From Nitrospirota bacterium (GTDB lineage: Bacteria > Nitrospirota > UBA9217), in contig CAWCKW010000012.1 in the NCBI GenBank assembly GCA_963796285.1, positions 384,001-448,000 on the forward strand: DNA of 64,000 nucleotides, read 5' to 3'. Below the pieces are notes generated by a model, which was given only the letters and a program-made list of their open reading frames with translations, had not been told where the DNA came from and made no database searches. The number at the start of each line of letters is the position of its first letter. The first letter of the stretch is position 1. The translations under genes and the position numbers were made by a program. Shown here piece after piece: positions 29,157 through 39,819 of this stretch.

Positions 29157-29842
29157 CTATGGCATCCTGAGTTTTTCCAGCGCTTCCCTGGCCGCTCCTT
29201 GTTCTGCTTCCTTTTTGCTCTTGCCTATCCCGCGGCCGGAAAGGTGCCCCTTGATCCATACTTCCATGTTGAACTGTTTCCGATGGTCAGGGCCTGTCTC
29301 GGAAACAATGCGGTAATCCGGAAGCTGTTTGAGGCGTTCCTGGCAGAGCTCCTGAAGCTCCGTCTTATAATCAAGAGATCCGCCCGATGTGCAGGTCTTC
29401 CTGATCATGCTTCGAAGACGCGGATAACGAATGCCTCAGCTGCGTCTATGCCCGCATCAAGGTATACGGATGCAATGAGGGCCTCAAGGCAATCTGCCAG
29501 GAGCGAATCCTTGTTCCTTCCGCCGGTTTGATCTTCTCCTTTTCCGAGCAGGAGATAGTCACCGAGACCGATCCCGCGGGAAACGGCGGCGAGGGCAGGT
29601 TCACTCACGATTGCTGCACGGAATCTCGAGAGGTCGCCCTCCGTCGAATCAGGGCAGGCCTTCATCAGATATTCGCTCACGACGAGGCTGAGGACGGCAT
29701 CGCCGAGGAACTCCATCCGTTCATTGTGATAGGGCACCCTGTTTTCGTTCGCATAGGACTTGTGCGTGAGCGCGCGCTCGAGGAGTTCCACGTCCTGGAA
29801 GGTATAGGCGATCCGCTGCTGGATGTCCGAGAGGGGAGGCAT
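29157..29842 (-). CDS. rnc: Ribonuclease III, -1 frameshift near 29407
   Basis: ALTHKSY, NERMEFLGDAVL, ADCLEALI, then dsRBD DYKTELQE...GPDH...SKKEAEQ in another frame. Confidence 0.92.
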
Positions 29843-29843
29843 C

Positions 29844-31085
29844 TTACTTCCGGAATCTGCGGAAGACCAGGCAGGCGTTCGTACCGCCGAATCCAAAGGA
29901 GTTGGACATGACTATGTCTACCTGCAGGTGTCTCGCTTTATTCGGGACGTAGTCCAGGTCACATTCAGGGTCCGGGTTCTCAAGATTGATCGTTGGAGGA
30001 AGGATCCCGCGTTCCAGTGCAAGAACGGAGATCACGGCTTCCACGCCCCCTGCTGCGCCCAGCAGATGGCCGGTCATGGATTTTGTGGAGCTTATCGGTA
30101 TTTTATAAGCAGTGTCGCCAAACACGGTCTTAATTGCCATGGTCTCGAGCTCGTCGCCGTACTTGGTCGAGGTGCCATGAGCGTTGATGTAGCCCACATC
30201 AGCCGGGTTGATGCCGGCGTCCTTGATGGCCATCTTCATACACCGGGCCGCTCCTTCACCATTCGGTGCTGGTGAGGTGATATGGTAAGCGTCTCCGGAC
30301 ATACCATAGCCGATCACCTCGGCGTAGATATGCGCCCCACGTTTTTTCGCGAATTCCAGTTCCTCGATGACAAGCAGTCCCGACCCCTCACCCATGATGA
30401 AGCCGTCACGCTCCGCGTCAAACGGACGACTAGCGCGCTCGGGCTCGCTGTTCCGGGTCGAGAGGGCCTTCATAGCGTTGAACCCGCCGACCCCGAGAGG
30501 GCAGATGCACGACTCGCTGCCACCGGCGATCATGGCATCGGCATCGCCGCGCTGGATGATCTTGAAGGCGTCGCCGATAGAGTGTGTGCCCGTGGCACAG
30601 GCAGTGACGACGCATGAGTTCGGGCCTTTCGCGCCGAAGCGCATGGAGATATGCCCGGCCATCTCATTAATGATAGACATGGGAATGAAAAAGGGTGTGA
30701 TCCGACGGTAACCCTTTTCCATGTATGCACGGTATGTTCGCTCGATCGCGGGGAGGCCGCCGATGCCGGCGCCGACCGTGACGCCCACGCGCTCGGCATT
30801 CTCGGGCGTCACGATGAGCCTTGAGCTGTCCATCGTCATTTGGCTCGCAGCGATCCCGAGATGAATGAACCGATCCATCTTCTTGATCTCTTTGGCCTCG
30901 ATGTATTGGGCCGGATCGAACCCCTTAACCTCACCCGCGATCTGCGTGGGGATGGTCTTGTCATCGAACTGCGTGATGGGGCCTATGCCTGACCTGCCGT
31001 TGATCAAGCCGTCCCAGCTCTTTTCCGTATCCAGGCCGACCGGGGTGATCATTCCGATGCCGGTGATGACAACTCTTCTTTTCAA
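29844..31085 (-). CDS. fabF: 3-oxoacyl-ACP synthase II
   Basis: [37 protein letters not shown]; TTG start after GGAGG. Confidence 0.96.
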
Positions 31086-31221
31086 AAAAAATCCCTCCTG
31101 CACACACTCCGTTAGAGAACAACGCTCCATCGGAGGCTATCTTGCTATTGTATATCACAAACCCGTCTGCATGATGAACGACGCTGAAAAGAGTCCGGAC
31201 TTTTTCTACCGGAGTAAAAAA

Positions 31222-31312: not shown

Positions 31313-31549
31313 TTACTTTGCTTTTGCCGTGATATAGTCGATCGCGTTTTGCACGGTCGCTATCTTCTCGGCATCTTCATCCGGGATTTCCACGCCGAAT
31401 TCCTCTTCGAGCGCCATGACGAGCTCCACTGTGTCGAGTGAATCAGCACCGAGATCGTTCACGAAAGACGCTTCGGGTTTTACATCCGCTTCCGGTACGC
31501 CGAGCTGCTCGGAAATGATCTTTTTTACTTTTGCCACTATATCTGCCAT
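31313..31549 (-). CDS. acpP: Acyl carrier protein
   Basis: [20 protein letters not shown]. Confidence 0.97.
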
Positions 31550-31665: not shown

Positions 31666-32406
31666 TTACATGTACATGCCGCCGTTCACATGGATCACCT
31701 GGCCGGTGATGTACGAAGCCCAGGGTGAAGCAAGGAAACGGACGGCATTCGCCACGTCCTCGGGCGTGCCGAGCTTGCCCATGGGGATCTGCTTCGCGAG
31801 TTCTGCCCTGACATTTTCGGACAGTGCCTGCGTCATGGCGGTATCGATAAAACCCGGGGCCACGGCGTTAGCCGTGATGCCGCGGTTCGCATATTCCCTG
31901 GCAATGGTCTTGGTCAGGCCGATGAGACCTGCCTTGGATGCGACGTAGTTCGCCTGTCCCGCATTGCCCATGGCTCCGACGATCGAGGCGATGTTGATGA
32001 TATTCCCGCTCCGCTGTTTGCTCATGTACTTGAGCGCTGCCTTAGTGCACAGGAACGCGCCTTTCAGGTTGATGCTGAGGACCAGGTCCCAGTCCTCGTC
32101 CTTCATCCGGAGGATGAGGCCGTCACGAGTGATGCCGGCGTTGTTCACGAGGATGTCGATCCGTCCGAGCTTCTCGACGACCTGATCGATCATGGCCGTG
32201 ACTTCGGCTGACGCGGCAACGTTCGTCTTGATGGCAAGCGATTTACTGCCTTTTGCTTCGATGTCGGCAACGGTCTTCTGCGCGGCCTCGAGGTTCACAT
32301 CGCAGATAGCGACATCAGCACCGTCGGCCGCAAGCGCGAGCGCGATATCCCTGCCGATGCCCTGTGCCGCTCCGGTGACGAGTGCTGTCTTTCCGCTCAA
32401 ACTCAT
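31666..32406 (-). CDS. fabG: 3-oxoacyl-ACP reductase
   Basis: TGAAQGIG, NNAGITRD, YVASK, NGGMYM. Confidence 0.96.
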   Translation of the reverse strand: MSLSGKTALVTGAAQGIGRDIALALAADGADVAICDVNLEAAQKTVADIEAKGSKSLAIKTNVAASAEVTAMIDQVVEKLGRIDILVNNAGITRDGLILRMKDEDWDLVLSINLKGAFLCTKAALKYMSKQRSGNIINIASIVGAMGNAGQANYVASKAGLIGLTKTIAREYANRGITANAVAPGFIDTAMTQALSENVRAELAKQIPMGKLGTPEDVANAVRFLASPWASYITGQVIHVNGGMYM

Positions 32407-32485: not shown

Positions 32486-33418
32486 TTAGAATCCCAGCAC
32501 ATTGAGCGTATCGCTCATGCTCCTTTGATCTTCGACGTTCAGCACTTTTGCGTCTTTTGCGATCCGCTTTACAAGGCCGGAAAGTACCTTGCCGGGTCCG
32601 ATCTCGATAAAAGTATCATAGCCGTCACTGACCATATTTTTGATCGAGTCTTCCCAAAAGAGCGGGGAACTGATCTGTTTGATAAGCGACGTCCTGAGCT
32701 CTGCAGCAGTCCGAATGAACTTCGCTTCCGCGTTATTCACGATAGGGTAGTTCAAATCGCTGATCGTTACCTTGATGAGTTCCTGCTCAAGCCGCTCGCC
32801 CGCCTGCTTCATCATGATACAGTGTGAAGGCACGCTCACCAATAGCGGGATCACTTTTTTCGCGCCGGCGGCCCGGGCAAGCTCCATGGCTTTTTCCACG
32901 GCCTTTTTCTCGCCGGCGATGACGATCTGGCCCGGGGAGTTGTAATTTGCAGGGGCAACTATACCATTTTTGGCGGCTTCATGGCAAGTTTTTTCTACGT
33001 CTTGCCGTTCCATCCCGAGAATGGCCGCCATAAGCCCTTCACCGGCAGGAACGGCCTCCTGCATGTACCTGCCGCGCTTTTGGACCAGCGCCACGGCATC
33101 CCTGAGTTCGAAGCCGCCGGCAGCGGTAATCGCGGTATATTCGCCAAGACTGTGGCCCGCAGCTGCGGTTGCAACAAGGCCTCTTCGTTCCAGCGGCCGG
33201 AGTATTGCGATGCTCGCTGCAAGGATCGCGGGCTGGGTGTTCTCGGTGAGGTTCAGCTTCTCGACCGGTCCGTGCATGCAGAGTTGAAGGAGGTCATAAC
33301 CGAGCACTGAGCTTGCAGTCTCAAAGACTTCTTTGGATTCGTCAAAATTTTCACTGAACTCCTTCGCCATACCAACGTACTGCGAACCCTGGCCGGGAAA
33401 GATGAATGCTATTTTCAT
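32486..33418 (-). CDS. fabD: Malonyl-CoA:ACP transacylase
   Basis: FPGQGSQ, TQPA, GHSLGEY, EIGPGKVL. Confidence 0.96.
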   Translation of the reverse strand: MKIAFIFPGQGSQYVGMAKEFSENFDESKEVFETASSVLGYDLLQLCMHGPVEKLNLTENTQPAILAASIAILRPLERRGLVATAAAGHSLGEYTAITAAGGFELRDAVALVQKRGRYMQEAVPAGEGLMAAILGMERQDVEKTCHEAAKNGIVAPANYNSPGQIVIAGEKKAVEKAMELARAAGAKKVIPLLVSVPSHCIMMKQAGERLEQELIKVTISDLNYPIVNNAEAKFIRTAAELRTSLIKQISSPLFWEDSIKNMVSDGYDTFIEIGPGKVLSGLVKRIAKDAKVLNVEDQRSMSDTLNVLGF

Positions 33419-33419
33419 T

Positions 33420-34610
33420 TTATCCCCGCATGTCCCTGATCTTCCTGATCATGATCGGAAGAACCTCGTGCACATCGCCGACAATACCATAGGTCGCAAC
33501 GCTGAAGATGGGCGCATCGGGGTCCTTATTGATCGCGACAATGACGTCCGATGACTGCATTCCGGCAATATGCTGGATTGCGCCGGAGATACCGCAGGCG
33601 ATGTAGAGCTTGGGGCAGACCGTCTTGCCCGTCTGGCCCACCTGGTGGGAGTAGGGGATCCAACCTTCATCAACGGCTCCCCTTGTTGCGGCAACCGCGC
33701 CTCCCAGCGCTTTTGCGAGTTCCTCAACCAATTGAAAGTTTTTGGCGCTGCCCAGGCCGCGGCCGCCCGCGACAATGATGTCCGCTTCACAGATGTTGAC
33801 GGTCTCTCCCAGTTCCTCCACGGTCTTGATGACCTTGGTGCGGAGATCTCCAGACGGATCATACTTCACGTCAATGATTTCACCGGTCCGTGCGTCATTG
33901 CGCGGCGCCGGTTTCATCACCTTGTGCCTAACCGTGGCCATCTGAGGCCGGTGGTTGGGGGTGACGATCGTGGCCATGATATTTCCGCCAAAGGCCGGAC
34001 GGGTCTGGTGGAGGTGGCCGGTCTCAGCGTCGATATCGAGCACGGTACAGTCTGCGGTAAGGCCGGTGTAGAGCGACGACGCGACCTTGGGAAAGAAGGA
34101 GCGGCCGATCGCCGTTGCACCCGCAAGGATGATCTCTGGCCTGTGCTGTCTCGCGAGCGCTGTCAGGACTCCGGCGTAAGAGTCGTCATTGAAATCTTTG
34201 AGCGACGGATCGTCCGCGACATAAACGATATCTGCGCCGCAGGCAATGAGCTCTTGAGCTTTATTGTGAATTCCGTGGCCGATGAAAACAGCGGCGAGTT
34301 TGGTCTTCCTCTTATCGGCCAGTTTCCTTCCTTCTCCAAGGAGTTCAAGGGCGACGCTGGATATGCCTCCTTTGTGCTGTTCGGCAAAGACCCACACACC
34401 CTTGTAGGCCGAAAGGTCGACAGCCGGGGAAGACGCCTCAACCGTTTTCTCGATAGCCTTGAATTCGCATGCCTCGACGCAGGCGCCGCACATGGTGCAG
34501 GCTTCGGTAATGAACGCCTTGCCGTCGCGCATCTCTATAGCACCGAAAGGGCATACTGATAAGCAGGTTTCGCATGCGGTGCATGTATCCGTTATGACTT
34601 TTACACTCAA
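33420..34610 (-). CDS. etfA: Electron transfer flavoprotein alpha subunit with N-terminal 2x[4Fe-4S] ferredoxin domain
   Basis: CTACETCLSVCP and CTMCGACVEACE; TGLTADCT, QTRPAFGGN, QVGQTGKTV, GISGAIQH; TTG start after AAGGAG. Confidence 0.95.
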   Translation of the reverse strand: MSVKVITDTCTACETCLSVCPFGAIEMRDGKAFITEACTMCGACVEACEFKAIEKTVEASSPAVDLSAYKGVWVFAEQHKGGISSVALELLGEGRKLADKRKTKLAAVFIGHGIHNKAQELIACGADIVYVADDPSLKDFNDDSYAGVLTALARQHRPEIILAGATAIGRSFFPKVASSLYTGLTADCTVLDIDAETGHLHQTRPAFGGNIMATIVTPNHRPQMATVRHKVMKPAPRNDARTGEIIDVKYDPSGDLRTKVIKTVEELGETVNICEADIIVAGGRGLGSAKNFQLVEELAKALGGAVAATRGAVDEGWIPYSHQVGQTGKTVCPKLYIACGISGAIQHIAGMQSSDVIVAINKDPDAPIFSVATYGIVGDVHEVLPIMIRKIRDMRG

Positions 34611-34695
34611 GGGAAGCTCCTTGTAATCAAGGGTCTGGAACCAACAGACGGCAGCGTTGGCCTGACACCTGAATTCCGACTCCCGTCTCCGGTGG

Positions 34696-35481
34696 TTAAA
34701 TAAACGACTGCTCTTTCAGTTTCTTTACTACCGTCGCGGCTTGTTCTTCGAGTGTGCCGGAAAGGATCTCCCGCTGTCCGCGTGGTGCAGGCGGGAATAT
34801 CTTTACCACCTTGGTTGGTGAACCCTTCAAGCCGCACAGATTCTGGTCCGCGTTTATGTCCGCGGCGGTCCAGGAAGTGACCTTGAGGCCCCTGGCTTTC
34901 ATTTTGCCTTTGAGCGAAGGCAGGCGCGGCTGATTGATCTCTTTCACAACGGTGATAAGGGCGGGGAGAGAGGTTTCGACAACATCGTACCCCTCGTCCA
35001 TCATGCGCTCGGCCACCATCTTCGAGTTTGTTATCTGTTCAATTTTTCTGATATAGGCTACGAAGGGAATGCCGAGCATATCAGCGGTTTCGGGGCCGAC
35101 CTGGGCCGTGTCGCCGTCGATAGCCTGTTTCCCGGCGATGATGAGATCGTAAGCGCCGATCTTTTTTATCCCCTGCGAGAGGGCATAGGATGTCGCCCAG
35201 GTATCGGCTCCGGCAAAGGCCCGGTCAGACAGGAGCACGCTGTCGTCCACGCCCAGGGCAACGGCCTCTTTGAGTGAGTCTGCCGCCTGGGGCGGTCCCA
35301 TGGTCACGGCGGTCACCTTGCCGCCGTGCTGTTCGCGCAAACGGAGAGCCTCTTCGATCGCATACATGTCGTAAGGGTTGATGATGCTCGGTACGCCGTC
35401 GCGAATAAGCGTGTTGGTCTCCCGGTTGATCTTGACCTCCGACGTGTCCGGCACCTGTTTTATCAGAACAATGATATTCAT
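34696..35481 (-). CDS. etfB: Electron transfer flavoprotein beta subunit
   Basis: KQVPDT, INPYD, DRAFAGADTWAT, GKQAIDGDTAQVG, GSPTKV. Confidence 0.95.
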   Translation of the reverse strand: MNIIVLIKQVPDTSEVKINRETNTLIRDGVPSIINPYDMYAIEEALRLREQHGGKVTAVTMGPPQAADSLKEAVALGVDDSVLLSDRAFAGADTWATSYALSQGIKKIGAYDLIIAGKQAIDGDTAQVGPETADMLGIPFVAYIRKIEQITNSKMVAERMMDEGYDVVETSLPALITVVKEINQPRLPSLKGKMKARGLKVTSWTAADINADQNLCGLKGSPTKVVKIFPPAPRGQREILSGTLEEQAATVVKKLKEQSFI

Positions 35482-35580
35482 GGTTCCAATCCTCTTGTCA
35501 AAAAGACATCAAGACACAATAGTGTTCTCTGTGCCTTAATGCCTCAGTGGTTTATGTGATCTCTGTGCTCGGTGCTCTGC

Positions 35581-36738
35581 TTACTTCTGTCTCGTTGCTT
35601 CCCTGATCATATCGAGGGCGATAACGTTTCGCTGGATCTGGTTCGTACCCTCGTAGATCTGGAGGATCTTGGCATCGCGCATCATCTTCTCGACGGGATA
35701 TTCCTTCATGTAGCCGGATCCGCCCATGACCTGTACCGCATCGGTCGTGACCTTCATGGCCGTATCGGTGGCGAAGAGCTTCGCCATGGCGGACGCCCGT
35801 GAGAAGTCTTTTGCCCCGCTGTCCATCATGCGGGCCGCGGAATAGACAAGGGCGCGGGCAGCCTCGGTCTGGGTCTGCATGTCCGCGAGCATATGCTGAA
35901 TGGCCTGAAAGGAGGTGATGGGCTGGCCGAACTGGACCCTGCCCTTGGCGAACTTGATGCACTCGTCGATTGCCCCCTGCGAAACGCCTACACCCTGGGC
36001 GCCCACGCCCGCGCGCGAGCAGTCGAGGGTCTTCATGGCCACGATGAAGCCCAGGCCTTCCCGGGCGATGAGGTTTTCTTTGGGGATGCGGCAGTTGTTG
36101 AAGATGAGCTCGGTGGTGGATGAAGCGCGGATGCCCATCTTGTTCTCTTTTTTACCGAAGGTGAATCCTGGAGTGCCCCTCTCCACGATGAAGGCCGAAG
36201 CGCCGCGGGCGCCCTTGGACTTGTCCGTGATGGCAATGACGGTGTATATCTGGGCCTCGCCGCCGTTCGTGATCCACTGTTTAGTGCCGTTCAGCACATA
36301 TTCGTTGCCTTCGAGTTTTGCAGTGGTTTGGATGCCGCTGGCATCGCTGCCCGCATTCGCCTCGGTAAGGCCGAATGCCGCGAGGTTCTTTCCCGATGCG
36401 ATGTCGGGCAGGTATTTCTTCTTCTGCGCCTCGCTGCCATGGAGGAGGATGGGGTAGCTGCCAAGTGCATTGGCTGCATAACTCGTGGATACGCCAACGC
36501 ATGCCTTGGAGATCTCTTCGATGGCGATGTAGAGCTCAAAGCTCTTTTTGCCAAGGCCGCCGTATTCCTCGGGGATGTAGATTCCGAAGAGGTCGGCCTG
36601 TGCCATGGCCTTCATGATATCAGTGGGGAACTTGTTATGCTCATCGAGCTCGGCGCGAACGGGCACGATCTTCTCCACCGCGATCTGCCGTGCAAGGTCT
36701 CGTATCATGATCTGGTCTTCTGTCAGCAAGTAATCCAT
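35581..36738 (-). CDS. Acyl-CoA dehydrogenase (Bcd/CarC-like)
   Basis: FGLTEANAGSD, NGTKQWITN, KMGIRAS, RVQFGQPI, QVMGGSGY, QIYEGTNQIQ (catalytic Glu). Confidence 0.93.
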   Translation of the reverse strand: MDYLLTEDQIMIRDLARQIAVEKIVPVRAELDEHNKFPTDIMKAMAQADLFGIYIPEEYGGLGKKSFELYIAIEEISKACVGVSTSYAANALGSYPILLHGSEAQKKKYLPDIASGKNLAAFGLTEANAGSDASGIQTTAKLEGNEYVLNGTKQWITNGGEAQIYTVIAITDKSKGARGASAFIVERGTPGFTFGKKENKMGIRASSTTELIFNNCRIPKENLIAREGLGFIVAMKTLDCSRAGVGAQGVGVSQGAIDECIKFAKGRVQFGQPITSFQAIQHMLADMQTQTEAARALVYSAARMMDSGAKDFSRASAMAKLFATDTAMKVTTDAVQVMGGSGYMKEYPVEKMMRDAKILQIYEGTNQIQRNVIALDMIREATRQK

Positions 36739-36756
36739 TGAATCCTCCAAAACTAT

Positions 36757-36861
36757 TAATTGGAAATTTAAGATTGAAAATTGGAAATTTTAAATTGCAA
36801 CCCGGAAGGAGCAAAGCATGAGAACGAACACTTTCCAATCTCCAATTTGCAATTTCCAATG
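36757..36861. repeat. Heptamer-periodic imperfect palindrome
   Basis: AAATTGG/AAATTTA/AGATTGA units ... TTCCAAT/CTCCAAT/TTGCAAT units. Confidence 0.7.
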
Positions 36862-36866
36862 AGTTT

Positions 36867-37847
36867 TTACCACCGTACCAGCGCTGATGCCCAGGTAAGG
36901 CCTCCTCCAAATGCTTCGAACAGGAGGAGATGGTTTTCCTTGATTCTGCCATCGCGGACTGCTTCGTCAAGCGCCATGGGGATCGAGGCTGCCGAGGTAT
37001 TGCCATATTTAGGAAGGGTGACCACGACCTTTTCCATCGGCATCTTCAGGCGCTGTGCCATTGCCTGGATGATCCGCAGGTTCGCCTGGTGCGGAATAAG
37101 AAAATCGATCTCTTCCGGTTTGACCTTGTTGTATGCCAGGGTCTCCTGCACAACGCCTTCGAGCGCCAGCACCGCTGCCTTGAAGGTCTCATTCCCCTTC
37201 ATCTTGATAAAGTGCATGCGTTTATGTATGGTCTCGTGCGACGCAGGATGCAGTGCCCCGCCTGCCGGAAGATAGAGGAGATCCCCGAGGGAACCGTCTG
37301 AGTGAAGATGGGTGGAGAGGACCCCGTGTTTGCCGGCCTGCCGCTGGATAACGACCGCGCCCGCCCCATCTCCGAAGAGAATGCACGTGGTCCGGTCCTC
37401 CCAGTCCGTGAAGCGGGAAAGGACCTCAGCACCCACCAGAAGGATACTCTTATACATCCCTGATTTTATGAAAGCATCGGCCACGGAAAGGCCGTAAAGG
37501 AATCCGGAACAGGCTGCATAGATGTCGAAAGCAGCTGCTTTTTTTGCACCGAGCTTTTGCTGGAGCACACAGCCGAGATTCGGCATCAACATGTCCGGTG
37601 TGGTAGTTGCTATCAGGATAAGGTCCAGTTCATTCGCGCCAAGACCCGCCGCTTTCAGTGCCTTTCGGCTTGCCTCGTAAGCGAGATCCGAAGTCGTCTG
37701 CCCCTTTTCCACGATCCTGCGTTCCTTGATGCCGGTGCGCTCCGTGATCCAGTCGTCACTCGTGTCCACCAGCTTCTCGAGGTCGTGATTGGTGATGATC
37801 TTACCCGGTACGTACGACCCGGTCCCTGTTATACGCGCATGAATCAT
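36867..37847 (-). CDS. fabH: 3-oxoacyl-ACP synthase III
   Basis: WITERTGI, AACSGF, FGDGAGA, PHQANLRI, GNTSAAS, FGGGLTW. Confidence 0.96.
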   Translation of the reverse strand: MIHARITGTGSYVPGKIITNHDLEKLVDTSDDWITERTGIKERRIVEKGQTTSDLAYEASRKALKAAGLGANELDLILIATTTPDMLMPNLGCVLQQKLGAKKAAAFDIYAACSGFLYGLSVADAFIKSGMYKSILLVGAEVLSRFTDWEDRTTCILFGDGAGAVVIQRQAGKHGVLSTHLHSDGSLGDLLYLPAGGALHPASHETIHKRMHFIKMKGNETFKAAVLALEGVVQETLAYNKVKPEEIDFLIPHQANLRIIQAMAQRLKMPMEKVVVTLPKYGNTSAASIPMALDEAVRDGRIKENHLLLFEAFGGGLTWASALVRW

Positions 37848-38857
37848 TTGGCTCTGGTCAGCTCCATATTCTTTTCAATATCCGCGCGAAGGTGCTTGTT
37901 GACCTCGCTCTTCGCGAGTTCAGCGGCCACGCGTATGGCGTTTTTAATGGCCCGGTCGGATGAACGGCCATGGCTGATGATGCTGATGCCATTGATGCCG
38001 ACGAGCGGCGCACCGCCGTATTCAGCGTAATCGACACGTCGTTTGAACGATTGGAACGCCGGGCGCATCAAGAGATATCCGAGTTTGCGCATCAGGCTGT
38101 TGCCGATACCTTCGCGAATAAAGAGGCCGATGGCCTCGGCAACGGATTCGGAAACCTTGAGGACGACGTTTCCGACAAAACCGTCGCATACGATCACATC
38201 CGCGTTGCCGGACATGACATCGCGTCCCTCGACATTGCCGATAAAATTGAGTGAGGTCTCGGTCAGGAGCTTGAATGCCTCCTTGGTCAGTTCGTTCCCT
38301 TTCGTCTCTTCTTCGCCGATGGACAGGAGCCCCACACGGGGACTGGGAACCTTTAACAGATACTTTGCGTAGACCTCTCCCATAACAGCGAACTGAAGGA
38401 GGTGATTGGGCTTGCAGTCCACATTCGCGCCCATATCGAGGATGATGGAGGTCCCGGTGATCGTGGGCATGAACGTGGCAATGGCCGGGCGCTCGATCCC
38501 TTCGAGCTTGCCCAGTACAAAGAGGGACGTGGCCATGGCAGCGCCGGTATGTCCCGCGCTGATCACGGCCACCGCTTCGCCGCTCTTCACAAGCTCATTG
38601 GCCACGCGGATGGAAGAATCTTTTTTTCTCCGGAAGACCGTGGCCGGAGAATCGAGCATGTCCACCACCTCGGTGGCGTTCCGGACCTCGAGCGGCAGTG
38701 ATTGCGCATGGGTGTGCTTCTTAAGTTCCGCCTGGATGATCTGTTCAACGCCCACCAGGATGATGCCGACCCCGTACTCCTTCGCTGCCTGTACAGCTCC
38801 GGCGACGACGGCATGGGGTGCATTGTCCCCCCCCATAGCATCAACAGCGATCTTCAT
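37844..38857 (-). CDS. plsX: Phosphate acyltransferase PlsX
   Basis: IAVDAMGGDNAP, SAGHTGA, DMGAN, GEEETKG, CDGFVGN, SHGRS. Confidence 0.96.
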   Translation of the reverse strand: MKIAVDAMGGDNAPHAVVAGAVQAAKEYGVGIILVGVEQIIQAELKKHTHAQSLPLEVRNATEVVDMLDSPATVFRRKKDSSIRVANELVKSGEAVAVISAGHTGAAMATSLFVLGKLEGIERPAIATFMPTITGTSIILDMGANVDCKPNHLLQFAVMGEVYAKYLLKVPSPRVGLLSIGEEETKGNELTKEAFKLLTETSLNFIGNVEGRDVMSGNADVIVCDGFVGNVVLKVSESVAEAIGLFIREGIGNSLMRKLGYLLMRPAFQSFKRRVDYAEYGGAPLVGINGISIISHGRSSDRAIKNAIRVAAELAKSEVNKHLRADIEKNMELTRAK

Positions 38858-38937
38858 ACAAGCTCCCCGCAATATAAAAGGCAAAGAGTCATACCGGAAA
38901 ATACAGTATCATCCCTTTGCCTTCGAGCAAGCGCCGG

Positions 38938-39120
38938 TTATATCTGCTGAACAGTTGCGATCTCGCGGCCGTTGTAGGTGCCGCAGGACAAACAGGCGTG
39001 ATGGGGCTGCTTCACTTCCTGGCATTGCGGACAGGCTGAGAGATTGGGTGCCTTGAGGTGCTTGTGGGTGCGTCTCTTGTCCCTGCGAGATTTGGATGTT
39101 TTGTGTTTTGGGTTCGCCAT
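38938..39120 (-). CDS. rpmF: 50S ribosomal protein L32
   Basis: MANPKHKTSKSRRDKRR, CPQC, PHHACLSCG. Confidence 0.97.
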   Translation of the reverse strand: MANPKHKTSKSRRDKRRTHKHLKAPNLSACPQCQEVKQPHHACLSCGTYNGREIATVQQI

Positions 39121-39140: not shown

Positions 39141-39656
39141 TTATTTTTTCAACAAATCCTTTAATGCGGAAAATGCTCCGAATTCACCTGCACTGTCCTT
39201 CTTGCAACCACAGTCCGTTTCATTCAGGTCCGTTCCGCAGACGGGACAGAGGCCCTTGCAGTTGGGAAGATGGAGCGGAACCATGGGGATGGAAATCAGC
39301 AACTGCTCTTTTACCAGATCGAGGGGCTCTATCTCCTCGCCCTGGTAGAACTCCACGTCAAGCTCTGACCGATCAAGTTCATGCTCCGGGGAAGTCCCCA
39401 GAGCTTTCTCCGGTGCAAGGGTTATATCCAGTTCCGTATCGATGTGATACGAAAAAACTTTCAAGCAACGGCTGCACTCGAACTCCGGGTCAGCCTGAAC
39501 ACGGCCTTTTACGTGGAGGCCGCCCGCACCCGTCGGCTTGATGCCAAGAACGGCCGCAACGGCGGTGGATGCTTTCCCGGTGTCGAACAGGTCGAGCTTC
39601 TGGTTCAGTTCCAGTGCAAGCCCCTCTGGCGGTATATCGCTGATCTTCATGCCCAT
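39141..39656 (-). CDS. yceD: YceD/DUF177 family protein
   Basis: CSRCL, CKGLCPVCGTDLNETDCGC, FSALKDL; directly upstream of rpmF. Confidence 0.92.
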   Translation of the reverse strand: MGMKISDIPPEGLALELNQKLDLFDTGKASTAVAAVLGIKPTGAGGLHVKGRVQADPEFECSRCLKVFSYHIDTELDITLAPEKALGTSPEHELDRSELDVEFYQGEEIEPLDLVKEQLLISIPMVPLHLPNCKGLCPVCGTDLNETDCGCKKDSAGEFGAFSALKDLLKK

Positions 39657-39819
39657 TTTGATGACTCTGGAGGCTGCAACGCTGTAAGTGTCGGATTATA
39701 AGGGGAAGCTCCGGTTTTGTCAAGAAGAAATGCAGATTCGCCGGGGGGCAGAGGTCAGGAGCCGGTAATCAGAAACATGGCAATAGATCATGCTGTTTTA
39801 TGCCCCGTCCCGCACCCAT

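What the first reader, a model, noticed from the sequence alone, without database searches (positions are those of the whole stretch)
33420..36738. Bifurcating-type acyl-CoA dehydrogenase/EtfB/Fd-EtfA module embedded in the fatty-acid synthesis operon
Seen: acd-etfB-etfA lies co-oriented between fabH and fabD in yceD-rpmF-plsX-fabH-[acd-etfB-etfA]-fabD-fabG-acpP-fabF-rnc. The etfA stop (33420) is 1 nt from the fabD start (33418). EtfA carries two [4Fe-4S] motifs, and the operon has no fabI/K/L/V. Established: Bcd-EtfAB and CarCDE (whose CarE has a ferredoxin domain) reduce enoyl-CoA with NADH while reducing ferredoxin by flavin-based electron bifurcation, and fabH-fabD are normally adjacent. 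Inference: the module may be an undescribed FAS-II component, either an energy-conserving enoyl-ACP reductase replacing FabI/K or a supplier of butyryl/branched acyl-CoA primers for FabH.
Basis: partly seen in the sequence, partly recalled or inferred. Interest (0 to 1): 0.8.

Follow-up and report, generated by a model that had tools for sequence, protein, structure and literature searches.

The report
Flavoprotein enoyl reductase inside fatty-acid operon
A three-gene flavoprotein set, of the kind fermenting bacteria use to reduce crotonyl-CoA while also making reduced ferredoxin, sits in this anaerobe's fatty-acid synthesis operon exactly where relatives carry the enoyl reductase FabK, so it is probably an undescribed and possibly energy-saving enzyme for the last step of each fatty-acid elongation cycle.

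Summary
On the minus strand the window reads yceD-rpmF-plsX-fabH-acd-etfB-(ferredoxin)etfA-fabD-fabG-acpP-fabF-rnc, with one base between the etfA stop and the fabD start.

The organism is a Nitrospirota (Thermodesulfovibrionia-type) bacterium. No FabI, FabK, FabL or FabV was found in its genome. Its only FabK-like gene is a FabX homologue.

- In 121 Nitrospirota genomes, 53 carry the Acd orthologue. None of those has FabI or true FabK.
- In 151 Desulfobacterota genomes, the overlap with canonical reductases is 1 of 73, against 26 of 78 elsewhere.
- In 5 of 5 true-FabK operons examined, fabK fills the same fabH-fabD slot.
- etfA lies directly upstream of fabD in 48 of 52 Nitrospirota genomes, even where acd has moved away.
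- Four closed genomes keep the trio yet have no crotonase and no 3-hydroxyacyl-CoA dehydrogenase.

Best reading (about 0.65): an Acd-EtfAB enoyl-ACP reductase, probably electron-bifurcating.

Function and ACP specificity are untested. Some genomes also carry FabK-like or FabL genes. No paper describing this was found. The scan has reported the same module on other genomes.

The parts
39695..39723 (-). Promoter-like site upstream of yceD (TTGACA, 17 nt, TATAAT; 12 of 12 consensus bases)
   Evidence: This is a consensus match only, not shown to function.
39141..39656 (-). yceD, first gene of the cluster
   Evidence: Pfam YceD, 91 bits.
38938..39120 (-). rpmF (ribosomal protein L32)
   Evidence: Pfam Ribosomal_L32p, 90 bits.
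37844..38884 (-). plsX
   Evidence: Pfam FA_synthesis, 395 bits.
36867..37847 (-). fabH (ketoacyl-ACP synthase III)
   Evidence: TIGR00747, 449 bits, over its cut-off.
36739..36866 (-). fabH-acd spacer of 128 nt, holding a long imperfect hairpin and the acd ribosome-binding site
   Evidence: Fold energy -32 kcal/mol, z -2.56. The roughly 60-nt hairpin core is absent from 7 of 7 relatives aligned. It is therefore specific to this genome and not part of the conserved module.
35581..36738 (-). acd: butyryl-CoA-dehydrogenase-like acyl-CoA dehydrogenase family flavoenzyme; proposed catalytic subunit of the enoyl-ACP reductase
   Evidence: All three ACAD Pfam domains are present. The best solved relatives are 5OL2_C (424 bits) and 4L1F_A. 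The IYEGT motif holding the catalytic Glu (recalled role) is conserved. Orthologues are 67-98% identical across phyla and form one clade.
34696..35481 (-). etfB: small Etf subunit of the bifurcating type
   Evidence: The best solved relatives are CarD 6FAH_B (266 bits), 5OL2_B, 7KOE_A, 7QH2_B and 4KPU_B (220-266 bits). The remaining Etf chains listed, which I take from recall to be non-bifurcating, score 57-95 bits.
33420..34610 (-). etfA: large Etf subunit with an N-terminal 2x[4Fe-4S] ferredoxin domain (the domain spans about 34431-34610)
   Evidence: It aligns over residues 1-391 with CarE 6FAH_A (413 bits), including all eight Cys. Pfam Fer4 x2, ETF and ETF_alpha match.
32486..33418 (-). 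fabD; its start lies 1 nt after the etfA stop
   Evidence: TIGR00128, 343 bits, over its cut-off. Junction sequence read. etfA is directly followed by fabD in 48 of 52 Nitrospirota genomes that hold the Fd-EtfA.
31666..32406 (-). fabG
   Evidence: Pfam adh_short_C2, 247 bits. It is the top hit of the FabG-type searches.
31313..31549 (-). acpP (78 aa, counted from the ATG at 31549)
   Evidence: Pfam PP-binding. The DSL motif is conserved in 21 of 21 aligned sequences.
29844..31130 (-). fabF
   Evidence: TIGR03150, 675 bits, over its cut-off.

Best explanation
Acd, EtfB and ferredoxin-fused EtfA together form the enoyl-ACP reductase of this organism's type II fatty-acid synthase. They take the place of FabI or FabK.

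Proposed mechanism, by analogy with Bcd-EtfAB and CarCDE (all steps inferred):
- NADH reduces the FAD on EtfB.
- One electron passes through the EtfA FAD to the Acd FAD, which reduces trans-2-enoyl-ACP to acyl-ACP.
- The other, low-potential electron leaves through the two [4Fe-4S] clusters of the EtfA ferredoxin domain to ferredoxin.
- Overall: 2 NADH + oxidised ferredoxin + enoyl-ACP gives 2 NAD+ + reduced ferredoxin + acyl-ACP.
- Part of the free energy of each elongation cycle would then be recovered.

Shown here: gene content, operon position, distribution across genomes, and family membership. Inferred: the substrate (ACP rather than CoA thioester), the direction of the reaction, and bifurcation.
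For: 1. No known enoyl-ACP reductase was found, while the rest of the pathway is present.
- G000 has fabH, fabD, fabG, acpP and fabF in the operon, and fabZ elsewhere.
- It has no FabI at E<=1e-30 and no FabL over the cut-off; the best FabL hit is fabG itself.
- It has no FabV domain.
- Its only FabK-like gene scores 100 bits against a cut-off of 453.
- That gene matches H. pylori FabX structures at 227 bits over its full length, against 56-73 bits for FabK structures (PDB codes confirmed as FabX in PMC8626469).

2. Nitrospirota sample of 121 genomes.
- An Acd orthologue (>=70% identity) is in 53 genomes.
- FabI (>=229 bits) is in 52, and FabK over its cut-off is in 7. Neither overlaps with the Acd set (0 genomes).
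- Fd-EtfA is in 52 of those 53 genomes and in 0 of the other 68.

3. Second phylum, 151 genomes around G167.
- An Acd orthologue (>=58% identity) is in 73 genomes.
- FabI or FabK over its cut-off is in 1 of those 73, against 26 of the other 78.

4. Same operon slot. In 5 of 5 true-FabK operons examined (three Nitrospirota, two of the second phylum), the order is yceD-rpmF-(plsX-fabH)-fabK-fabD-fabG-acpP-fabF.

5. Linkage survives rearrangement. etfA is directly followed by fabD in 48 of 52 genomes, including families where acd lies kilobases away or on another contig.

6. No CoA pathway to serve. Closed or near-closed genomes G036, G080, G119 and G153 have 0 ECH_1 and 0 3HCDH_N matches. They also lack FabI, FabK and FabL, yet keep Acd and EtfBA.

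7. G000 has a separate beta-oxidation cluster with its own 608-aa ACAD and an Etf without a ferredoxin domain.

8. The Etf subunits resemble only bifurcating Etfs closely.

9. The Acd orthologues form one tight clade. SH-aLRT support is 100, and the median end branch of the whole 88-row tree is 0.095. The clade roughly follows phyla, as expected of a conserved housekeeping gene.
Against: - No assay or structure shows that Acd accepts ACP thioesters.
- Acd is most similar to genuine CoA-dependent Bcd (424 bits to 5OL2_C). It shows no shift in net charge against outgroups. Only a few basic residues are specific to the clade (K27, R182, K201), and I could not map them onto a structure.
- The same trio stands outside any fab context in 10 Bacillota genomes, and 6 of those have a true FabI.
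- In the second phylum, 26 of 73 Acd genomes also have a FabK-like gene below the cut-off. Twelve of 73 have a weak FabI/FabL-like gene; one of these, in G154, scores over the FabL cut-off. One of 73 has a true FabI.
- Ten of 121 Nitrospirota genomes show none of Acd, FabI or FabK. These include 5 of 5 genomes in family f17, four of which are listed as single contigs. An unrecognised reductase may therefore exist, which weakens the argument from absence.
- The FabV search had no positive control.
- G000 is 96% complete.
- Related genomes are not independent observations, so the counts overstate the number of evolutionary events.
- Co-transcription is not shown.
Confidence: 0.65

Rival explanations
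1. The trio is the enoyl-ACP reductase but does not bifurcate. It could pass NADH electrons only to the enoyl thioester. Alternatively, it could take electrons from reduced ferredoxin through the Fe-S domain (ferredoxin to Etf to Acd to enoyl-ACP).
For: The ferredoxin domain could conduct electrons in either direction. Bifurcation is inferred from similarity alone. PMC12630350 reports (abstract seen in the listing) that an Etf in Fusobacterium works as a canonical Etf, passing electrons to Bcd for crotonyl-CoA reduction.
Against: EtfB and EtfA score 220-413 bits against the five solved bifurcating Etfs. The remaining Etf chains listed, non-bifurcating by recall, score 57-154 bits. The CarE-type ferredoxin domain is retained in all orthologues seen. 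The specific NADH and second-FAD motifs were not checked, because the paper that defines them is not held.
Confidence: 0.15
2. The trio reduces a short or branched enoyl-CoA (crotonyl-, methylcrotonyl- or tiglyl-CoA) to supply acyl-CoA primers to FabH. An unrecognised protein would then be the true enoyl-ACP reductase.
For: acd lies directly downstream of fabH. Acd is closest to butyryl-CoA dehydrogenases. Ten of 121 Nitrospirota genomes lack all known reductases without having the trio, so unknown reductases may exist.
Against: Four closed or near-closed genomes keep the trio but have no crotonase-family and no 3-hydroxyacyl-CoA dehydrogenase gene to make an enoyl-CoA. True FabK, not a primer enzyme, fills the same slot in relatives. 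The tighter linkage is etfA-fabD (48 of 52 genomes) rather than acd-fabH. This reading also leaves the missing reductase unexplained.
Confidence: 0.08
3. The trio runs in the oxidative direction as an acyl-ACP (or acyl-CoA) dehydrogenase, for anaerobic unsaturated-fatty-acid synthesis or lipid remodelling. Etf would carry the electrons away.
For: ACAD-family enzymes normally oxidise. ACAD-family members that act on carrier-protein-bound substrates exist: NCBIfam models MbtN, RedW and PigA give weak matches. The genome's FabX homologue does such a dehydrogenation and has no known anaerobic electron acceptor (PMC8626469, passages read).
Against: FabX already covers that step. FabX is not found in 8 of 8 f16 genomes that keep Acd-Etf, so the two are independent. 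Bifurcating-type Etfs of this clade are known with reductive Bcd and CarC (recalled). The missing reductase stays unexplained. The FabK slot equivalence points to reduction.
Confidence: 0.06
4. A catabolic beta-oxidation or fermentation Acd-Etf set has been carried along in the fab operon without a role in synthesis.
For: Orthologous trios in Bacillota stand in unrelated neighbourhoods, and 6 of 10 of those genomes have FabI.
Against: G000 has a separate beta-oxidation cluster with its own ACAD and Etf. The trio is kept in a 1.1-Mb genome and in 1.8-2.4-Mb closed genomes that have no other beta-oxidation enzymes. Operon position and etfA-fabD adjacency are conserved across phyla.
Confidence: 0.06

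Closest known systems
Bcd-EtfAB, the electron-bifurcating butyryl-CoA dehydrogenase complex (C. difficile PDB 5OL2; A. fermentans 4L1F and 4KPU)
   Same: Acd is most similar to 5OL2_C (424 bits) and 4L1F_A (404 bits) and keeps the IYEGT motif. EtfB and EtfA match 5OL2_B/A and 4KPU_B/A at 220-318 bits. The gene order is the same: acd-etfB-etfA.
   Different: The trio sits inside the fatty-acid synthesis operon rather than with thl, hbd and crt. Four closed genomes that carry it have no crotonase or 3-hydroxyacyl-CoA dehydrogenase. EtfA has an extra ferredoxin domain. The orthologues form a clade separate from the other Bcd-like genes of the same phyla, which are <=47% identical. The proposed substrate is enoyl-ACP.
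CarCDE, the caffeyl-CoA reductase-Etf complex of Acetobacterium woodii (PDB 6FAH)
   Same: It is the best solved match for both Etf subunits (CarD 266 bits; CarE 413 bits over residues 1-391). The match includes the N-terminal domain with eight Cys.
   Different: The dehydrogenase subunit is closer to Bcd (424 bits) than to CarC (318 bits). Genomic context and proposed substrate differ.
FabK (enoyl-ACP reductase II, an FMN TIM-barrel enzyme)
   Same: It occupies the identical slot between fabH and fabD in otherwise collinear operons of the same two phyla (5 of 5 examined). In the Nitrospirota sample its distribution is mutually exclusive with the trio.
   Different: The fold and cofactor set are unrelated. 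FabK is a single polypeptide. No ferredoxin output is known for it.
FabI, FabL and FabV (SDR-superfamily enoyl-ACP reductases)
   Same: They carry out the step proposed here. FabI is complementary in distribution: 0 of 53 Nitrospirota and 1 of 73 second-phylum genomes with the trio have it.
   Different: There is no sequence relationship. A 2022 review of bacterial enoyl reductases (PMC9260719) contains none of the terms 'acyl-CoA dehydrogenase', 'electron transfer' or 'ferredoxin' in its main text.
ACAD-family dehydrogenases acting on carrier-protein-bound substrates (MbtN, RedW, PigA)
   Same: They are a precedent for the ACAD fold accepting phosphopantetheine-tethered substrates on a carrier protein (recalled; the models are named).
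   Different: Acd scores far below their cut-offs: MbtN 80 against 700, RedW 264 against 650, PigA 247 against 500. Those enzymes oxidise, and they are not Etf-bifurcating.
FabX (H. pylori decanoyl-ACP dehydrogenase/isomerase)
   Same: [quoted passage not shown] A homologue is encoded elsewhere in this genome (L001:1453-2556).
   Different: It belongs to a different family (NMO/FabK-like) and serves the unsaturated-fatty-acid branch. Its distribution is independent of the trio.

Membership tests
Bcd/CarC-type acyl-CoA dehydrogenase with bifurcating EtfAB | Three-domain ACAD fold with the catalytic Glu in the C-terminal YEGT motif | tested here: met
   Pfam Acyl-CoA_dh_N, _M and _1 all match. 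IYEGTNQIQR aligns with IYEGTSEVQR of 5OL2_C. The catalytic role of the Glu is recalled, not tested.
Bcd/CarC-type acyl-CoA dehydrogenase with bifurcating EtfAB | EtfB and EtfA of the bifurcating group (second FAD and an NADH site on EtfB) | tested here: inconclusive
   The top five solved matches for both subunits are bifurcating Etfs (220-413 bits). The remaining Etf chains listed, non-bifurcating by recall, score 57-154 bits. The published diagnostic motifs could not be checked, because the paper is not held.
Bcd/CarC-type acyl-CoA dehydrogenase with bifurcating EtfAB | CarE-type N-terminal 2x[4Fe-4S] ferredoxin domain on EtfA | tested here: met
   Eight Cys in two CxxCxxCxxxC motifs align with CarE. 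Pfam Fer4 matches twice.
Bcd/CarC-type acyl-CoA dehydrogenase with bifurcating EtfAB | The substrate is an enoyl-CoA supplied by a CoA pathway (crotonase, 3-hydroxyacyl-CoA dehydrogenase) | tested here: not met
   Closed or near-closed genomes G036, G080, G119 and G153 carry the orthologous module but give 0 ECH_1 and 0 3HCDH_N matches. G000 itself has one such cluster, but it comes with its own ACAD and Etf. This is contextual evidence, not biochemical.
Bcd/CarC-type acyl-CoA dehydrogenase with bifurcating EtfAB | NADH-dependent, coupled reduction of ferredoxin and the enoyl thioester | not testable with these tools
   This needs an anoxic enzyme assay.
Type II FAS enoyl-ACP reductases (FabI, FabL, FabV, FabK) | Sequence membership in one of the four known families | tested here: not met
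   Acd, EtfB and EtfA match only ACAD, ETF and Fer4 families. They are neither SDR nor NMO proteins.
Type II FAS enoyl-ACP reductases (FabI, FabL, FabV, FabK) | Encoded with the fab genes and complementary in distribution to the other reductases | tested here: met
   Same slot as FabK in 5 of 5 operons. Overlap with FabI or true FabK is 0 of 53 (Nitrospirota) and 1 of 73 (second phylum). Caveat: FabK-like, FabL-like or weak FabI-like genes co-occur in 33 of the 73.
Type II FAS enoyl-ACP reductases (FabI, FabL, FabV, FabK) | Reduces trans-2-enoyl-ACP; rescues a fabI mutant | not testable with these tools
   This needs biochemistry or genetics.
ACAD-family acyl-carrier-protein dehydrogenases (MbtN, RedW, PigA) | Score over the family model cut-off | tested here: not met
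   MbtN 80 against 700 bits; RedW 264 against 650; PigA 247 against 500.

The most novel reading that the evidence does not exclude
Acd-EtfAB is a fifth, structurally unrelated class of bacterial enoyl-ACP reductase, and the first that is electron-bifurcating. Each elongation cycle of lipid synthesis would yield one reduced ferredoxin, so strict anaerobes recover energy from membrane synthesis. In the samples searched it is the main reductase candidate of Thermodesulfovibrionia-type Nitrospirota and of about half of the Desulfobacterota genomes. It also occurs in MAGs labelled Omnitrophota, Margulisiibacteriota, Saganbacteria, Rokuibacteriota, Actinomycetota and others.
Probability: 0.45. Interest if true: 0.9.

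Novelty: new variant of a known kind. Interest (0 to 1): 0.8.

Why it matters
Enoyl-ACP reduction is an essential step and a drug target. The recognised bacterial enzymes are FabI, FabL, FabV and FabK. A 2022 review of them (PMC9260719) has no mention of an acyl-CoA-dehydrogenase or Etf type.

If this reading is right, three things follow:
- A large share of strict anaerobes have been annotated with a gap in fatty-acid synthesis that is in fact filled by an enzyme labelled 'butyryl-CoA dehydrogenase/Etf'.
- Metabolic reconstructions that read these genes as butyrate or beta-oxidation markers would be wrong for those organisms.
- Flavin-based electron bifurcation would extend from catabolism into a core anabolic pathway. 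That changes the energy budget of membrane synthesis in energy-limited organisms.

The hypothesis can be tested directly with cultured Thermodesulfovibrio-type strains or by expression in E. coli.

Tried and rejected
- Complex prediction of an Acd dimer with AcpP gave no verdict (score 0.00, controls not run). It says nothing for or against binding.
- RNA evidence. Two metatranscriptomic runs (X1, X2) hold contigs 90-96% like acd, etfA, etfB, fabD, plsX and others, so they come from relatives. None of the listed pieces bridges fabH-acd or etfA-fabD. DNA carry-over in those libraries cannot be excluded. Co-transcription is therefore neither shown nor refuted.
- FabV search with PF12241 found nothing in 121 genomes, but also nothing in the 14 controls. 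It is uninformative.
- Search for an ACP-docking signature. Twenty clade-specific columns were found, including K27, R182 and K201, but there was no net-charge shift and I could not map them onto a structure. Inconclusive.
- Chain-length pocket residues: I compared positions by eye from recalled MCAD and VLCAD knowledge and found nothing discriminating. Dropped.
- I first considered the FabK-like gene of G000 as a hidden FabK. This was rejected because it is a FabX homologue and is not found in 8 of 8 f16 genomes that keep the trio.
- Butyrate-operon context for the Bacillota trios: 10 neighbouring genes in 4 loci are unrelated housekeeping genes, with no thl, hbd or crt among them.
- Literature searches for an ACAD/Etf enoyl-ACP reductase or for acd-etfBA in a fab operon found nothing on the topic. 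PMC10553843 notes bifurcating-type etfAB in syntrophic sulfate reducers without linking it to lipid synthesis (passage read). Its S7 Table could not be seen. Garcia Costas et al. 2017 is not held.
- The hairpin in the fabH-acd spacer is not conserved in relatives, so it is not part of the module.

Full report
**What is in the window**

ORF listing and family scans confirm a co-oriented minus-strand cluster:
- yceD (39141-39656)
- rpmF (38938-39120)
- plsX (37844-38884)
- fabH (36867-37847)
- an acyl-CoA-dehydrogenase-family gene, acd (35581-36738)
- etfB (34696-35481)
- etfA (33420-34610)
- fabD (32486-33418)
- fabG (31666-32406)
- acpP (31313-31549)
- fabF (29844-31130)
- rnc

The etfA stop TAA (33422-33420) is followed by one base and then the fabD ATG. 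acd most likely starts at the ATG at 36738, which has GGAGG 7 nt upstream.

A perfect sigma-70 consensus lies upstream of yceD (39723-39695). Of the eight terminator-like hits in the scan, the three on the coding strand all fall inside plsX or fabG, not between genes. These are pattern matches only.

EtfA carries an N-terminal domain with eight Cys in two CxxCxxCxxxC motifs.

**What the three proteins are**

- Acd has the three ACAD domains. It is most similar to the Bcd subunit of the C. difficile bifurcating complex (5OL2_C, 424 bits) and to A. fermentans Bcd (4L1F_A, 404 bits). The IYEGT motif is kept.
- EtfB best matches CarD (6FAH_B, 266 bits), then 5OL2_B, 7KOE_A, 7QH2_B and 4KPU_B (220-240 bits). 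The remaining Etf chains listed, which I take from recall to be non-bifurcating, score 57-95 bits.
- EtfA aligns end to end with CarE (6FAH_A, 413 bits, residues 1-391), including the ferredoxin domain.

By similarity, then, the trio is a Bcd/CarCDE-type complex of the bifurcating kind. I could not check the published diagnostic motifs, because the paper is not held.

**The genome lacks every known enoyl-ACP reductase**

The window lies in a 3.58-Mb, 13-contig assembly that is 96% complete. Related records are labelled Nitrospirota, Thermodesulfovibrionales or Thermodesulfovibrionia.
- FabI model NF005717: nothing at E<=1e-30. E. coli FabI scores 293 bits on this model.
- FabL model NF005975: the best hit is the operon's own fabG, at 176 bits against a cut-off of 328.
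- The four strongest of the eight SDR matches are three FabG-type proteins and a pteridine-reductase-like protein. No match reaches the FabI threshold or the FabL cut-off.
- FabV domain: no hit, but this search had no positive control.
- FabK model: the best hit is 100 bits against a cut-off of 453.

That FabK-like protein (L001:1453-2556, 367 aa) matches the H. pylori FabX structures 7E1Q/R/S at 227 bits over its full length. FabK structures score only 56-73 bits. The paper confirms that those PDB codes are FabX, a decanoyl-ACP dehydrogenase/isomerase of unsaturated-fatty-acid synthesis (PMC8626469, passages read).

FabZ is present elsewhere in the genome. The pathway is therefore complete except for the enoyl reductase.

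**Distribution within the phylum**

In an even sample of 121 Nitrospirota genomes:
- An Acd orthologue (>=70% identity) is in 53 genomes: all of families f1, f3, f4, f11, f12, f13, f15, f16, f18 and f20, counting G000.
- FabI (>=229 bits) is in 52 genomes (f5, f6, f7, 6 of 11 in f8, f9, f10, f14, f19).
- FabK over its cut-off is in 7 genomes (f2, f7).
- No genome with the Acd orthologue has FabI or true FabK.
- One genome, G103, has a divergent FabI-like gene (151 bits) beside a fabF-like and an NMO-like gene.
- The ferredoxin-EtfA orthologue is in 52 of the 53 Acd genomes and in 0 of the other 68, always as a single copy.
- Ten genomes (5 of 5 in f17, 5 of 11 in f8) show none of the three. 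This is a caveat for any argument from absence.
- The FabX-like gene is not found in 8 of 8 f16 genomes that keep Acd and Etf, so it is not the hidden reductase.

**Distribution beyond the phylum**

A scan of one genome per species found 590 relatives. The best 80 are 67-95% identical. Their records are labelled Nitrospirota, Deltaproteobacteria or Thermodesulfobacteriota, Omnitrophota, Margulisiibacteriota, Saganbacteria, Rokuibacteriota, Actinomycetota, Elusimicrobia, Verrucomicrobiota, Vulcanimicrobiota and Bacillota.

tblastn with the window's proteins sorted the 80 loci as follows:
- 32 loci show acd and etf genes flanked by fab genes, mostly as plsX-fabH-acd-etfB-etfA-(fabD)-fabG-acpP-fabF.
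- 6 have acd next to fab genes without etf.
- 3 have acd-etfB-etfA-fabD.
- 15 have acd with etf genes (13 with both etfB and etfA) and no fab genes. Ten of these are Bacillota.
- 24 have acd alone. Some of these are cut by contig ends.

A tree of 81 orthologues and 7 outgroups puts the orthologues in one clade (SH-aLRT 100). Branches are short (median end branch of the whole tree 0.095), and the order roughly follows phyla. The Bacillota rows are basal and unresolved.

**A second phylum as replicate**

In 151 genomes of the phylum of G167 (a record labelled Deltaproteobacteria):
- 73 have an orthologue at >=58% identity.
- True FabI (>=237 bits) is in 22 genomes. Only one of them (G181) has the orthologue.
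- FabK over its cut-off is in 5 genomes, none with the orthologue.
- Canonical reductases are thus in 1 of 73 genomes with the orthologue, against 26 of 78 without. Fisher p is 6e-8, overstated because related genomes are not independent.

Against the reading:
- FabK-like genes below the cut-off occur in 26 of the 73 (against 44 of 78).
- Weak FabI/FabL-like genes occur in 12 of the 73. One of these, in G154, scores 382 bits on the FabL model, over its cut-off.
- 39 of the 73 have no candidate at all.

Among the 44 non-Nitrospirota genomes reached through loci, the six true FabI hits are all in Bacillota genomes whose trio is not linked to fab genes. Two complete chromosomes with a fab-linked trio have no FabI, no FabK-like gene and no FabL over its cut-off. 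They are G153 (Omnitrophota, 1.1 Mb) and G167 (3.6 Mb).

**Same slot as FabK**

I fetched five operons that hold a FabK over its cut-off: G034, G030 and G025 (Nitrospirota), and G206 and G213 (second phylum). All five read yceD-rpmF-(plsX-fabH)-fabK-fabD-fabG-acpP-fabF.

The trio therefore stands exactly where a proven kind of enoyl-ACP reductase stands in otherwise collinear operons. This test was prompted by earlier notes of the scan.

**Linkage that survives rearrangement**

In Thermodesulfovibrio-like closed genomes, acd lies 4-6 kb or about 380 kb from the etf genes, yet etfB-etfA-fabD stay contiguous.

Across the phylum sample, etfA is directly followed by fabD on the same strand in 48 of 52 genomes. 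The exceptions are:
- two genomes with a divergent fabD-like gene 2.5-2.8 kb downstream;
- one with the fabD-like gene on another contig;
- one with no fabD found.

**No CoA pathway to serve**

G000 has one beta-oxidation cluster (contig C1, 104-116 kb). It comprises an 800-aa fused 3-hydroxyacyl-CoA dehydrogenase/crotonase, a 608-aa ACAD, and an Etf without a ferredoxin domain. The fab-linked trio is therefore not needed for degradation.

Closed or near-closed genomes G036, G080, G119 and G153 give 0 crotonase-family and 0 3-hydroxyacyl-CoA dehydrogenase matches, yet keep the trio. An enoyl-CoA substrate has no evident source there. This also argues against the primer-supply idea.

**Most likely mechanism**

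By analogy with Bcd-EtfAB and CarCDE (established for those enzymes, inferred here):
- NADH reduces the EtfB flavin.
- One electron goes through the EtfA flavin to the Acd flavin, and from there to trans-2-enoyl-ACP.
- The other electron goes through the two Fe-S clusters to ferredoxin.

The large potential gap between NADH and the enoyl/acyl thioester couple (recalled values of about -320 mV and -10 mV) makes this thermodynamically reasonable. I put the reductase role at about 0.65, and reductase plus bifurcation at about 0.45.

**What remains open**

- ACP against CoA specificity is not shown. The complex prediction gave no verdict, and the sequence signature analysis was inconclusive.
- Co-transcription is not shown.
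- The role of the trio in Bacillota that also have FabI, and in Desulfobacterota with FabK-like or FabL genes, is open. It could be a second, condition-specific reductase, as several bacteria carry two (recalled).

**Novelty**

Seven full-text searches found no paper that describes an ACAD/Etf enoyl-ACP reductase or this operon arrangement. A 2022 review of bacterial enoyl reductases does not contain the terms 'acyl-CoA dehydrogenase', 'electron transfer' or 'ferredoxin' (PMC9260719, term search of the main text). Subscription journals are largely outside the library.

The scan itself has noted the same module on at least 15 other genomes, with the same reading. One of those reports is marked 'part of it fell', without detail.

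I class it as a new variant of a known kind: a known enzyme complex type in a new, untested role.

Noticed in passing
window 29157-29896 (-): rnc (RNase III) is split between two frames. The catalytic domain is at 29405-29896 and the dsRNA-binding domain at 29157-29408. A relative's contig has one extra T behind 29407 (table 4). This is either a homopolymer assembly error or a real frameshift.
   Followed up: partly
window 36739-36866 (-): The fabH-acd spacer holds a roughly 60-nt palindromic insertion that folds into a long hairpin (-32 kcal/mol, z -2.56). It contains two copies of AAATTTCCAATT. It is absent from 7 of 7 close relatives and has no other copy in the window.
   Followed up: partly
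G000 contig C12:1992072-1992854 (L001:1453-2556): A 367-aa homologue of H. pylori FabX (227 bits to 7E1Q over the full length) sits in a strict-anaerobe lineage. The only electron acceptor found for FabX is oxygen (PMC8626469), so its acceptor here is unknown.
   Followed up: partly
G000 contig C13:547-549.6 kb (L005, L134): A second fab-like cluster holds a FabG-type reductase (313 bits on TIGR01830), a divergent FabF-like synthase (332 bits, below its cut-off) and a FabZ-like gene with one in-frame TAA. It may be a secondary lipid pathway.
   Followed up: no
G000 contig C1:104-116 kb (L124): A separate beta-oxidation cluster: an 800-aa fused 3-hydroxyacyl-CoA dehydrogenase/crotonase, a 608-aa ACAD, and EtfB/EtfA without a ferredoxin domain.
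   Followed up: partly
relatives G018, G112, G016, G011, G014 and others: Open frames of 2300-2800 aa carry an ACAD-like segment and, in G018 and G112, a FabK-like segment. They look like giant PKS or PUFA-synthase-like proteins. No such frame turned up in G000.
   Followed up: no
Nitrospirota family f17 (G089, G105, G113, G128, G136): Five genomes of 99-100% completeness, four of them single contigs, have fabD. None shows FabI, FabK, a FabV domain or the Acd-Etf trio. Their enoyl reductase is unidentified.
   Followed up: no
G103 contig C22:210.7-214.1 kb (L108): A divergent FabI-like gene (177 bits at best on FabI models), a fabF-like gene and a 355-aa NMO/FabK-like gene form a cluster about 20 kb from that genome's acd-etf-fabD genes.
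   Followed up: partly
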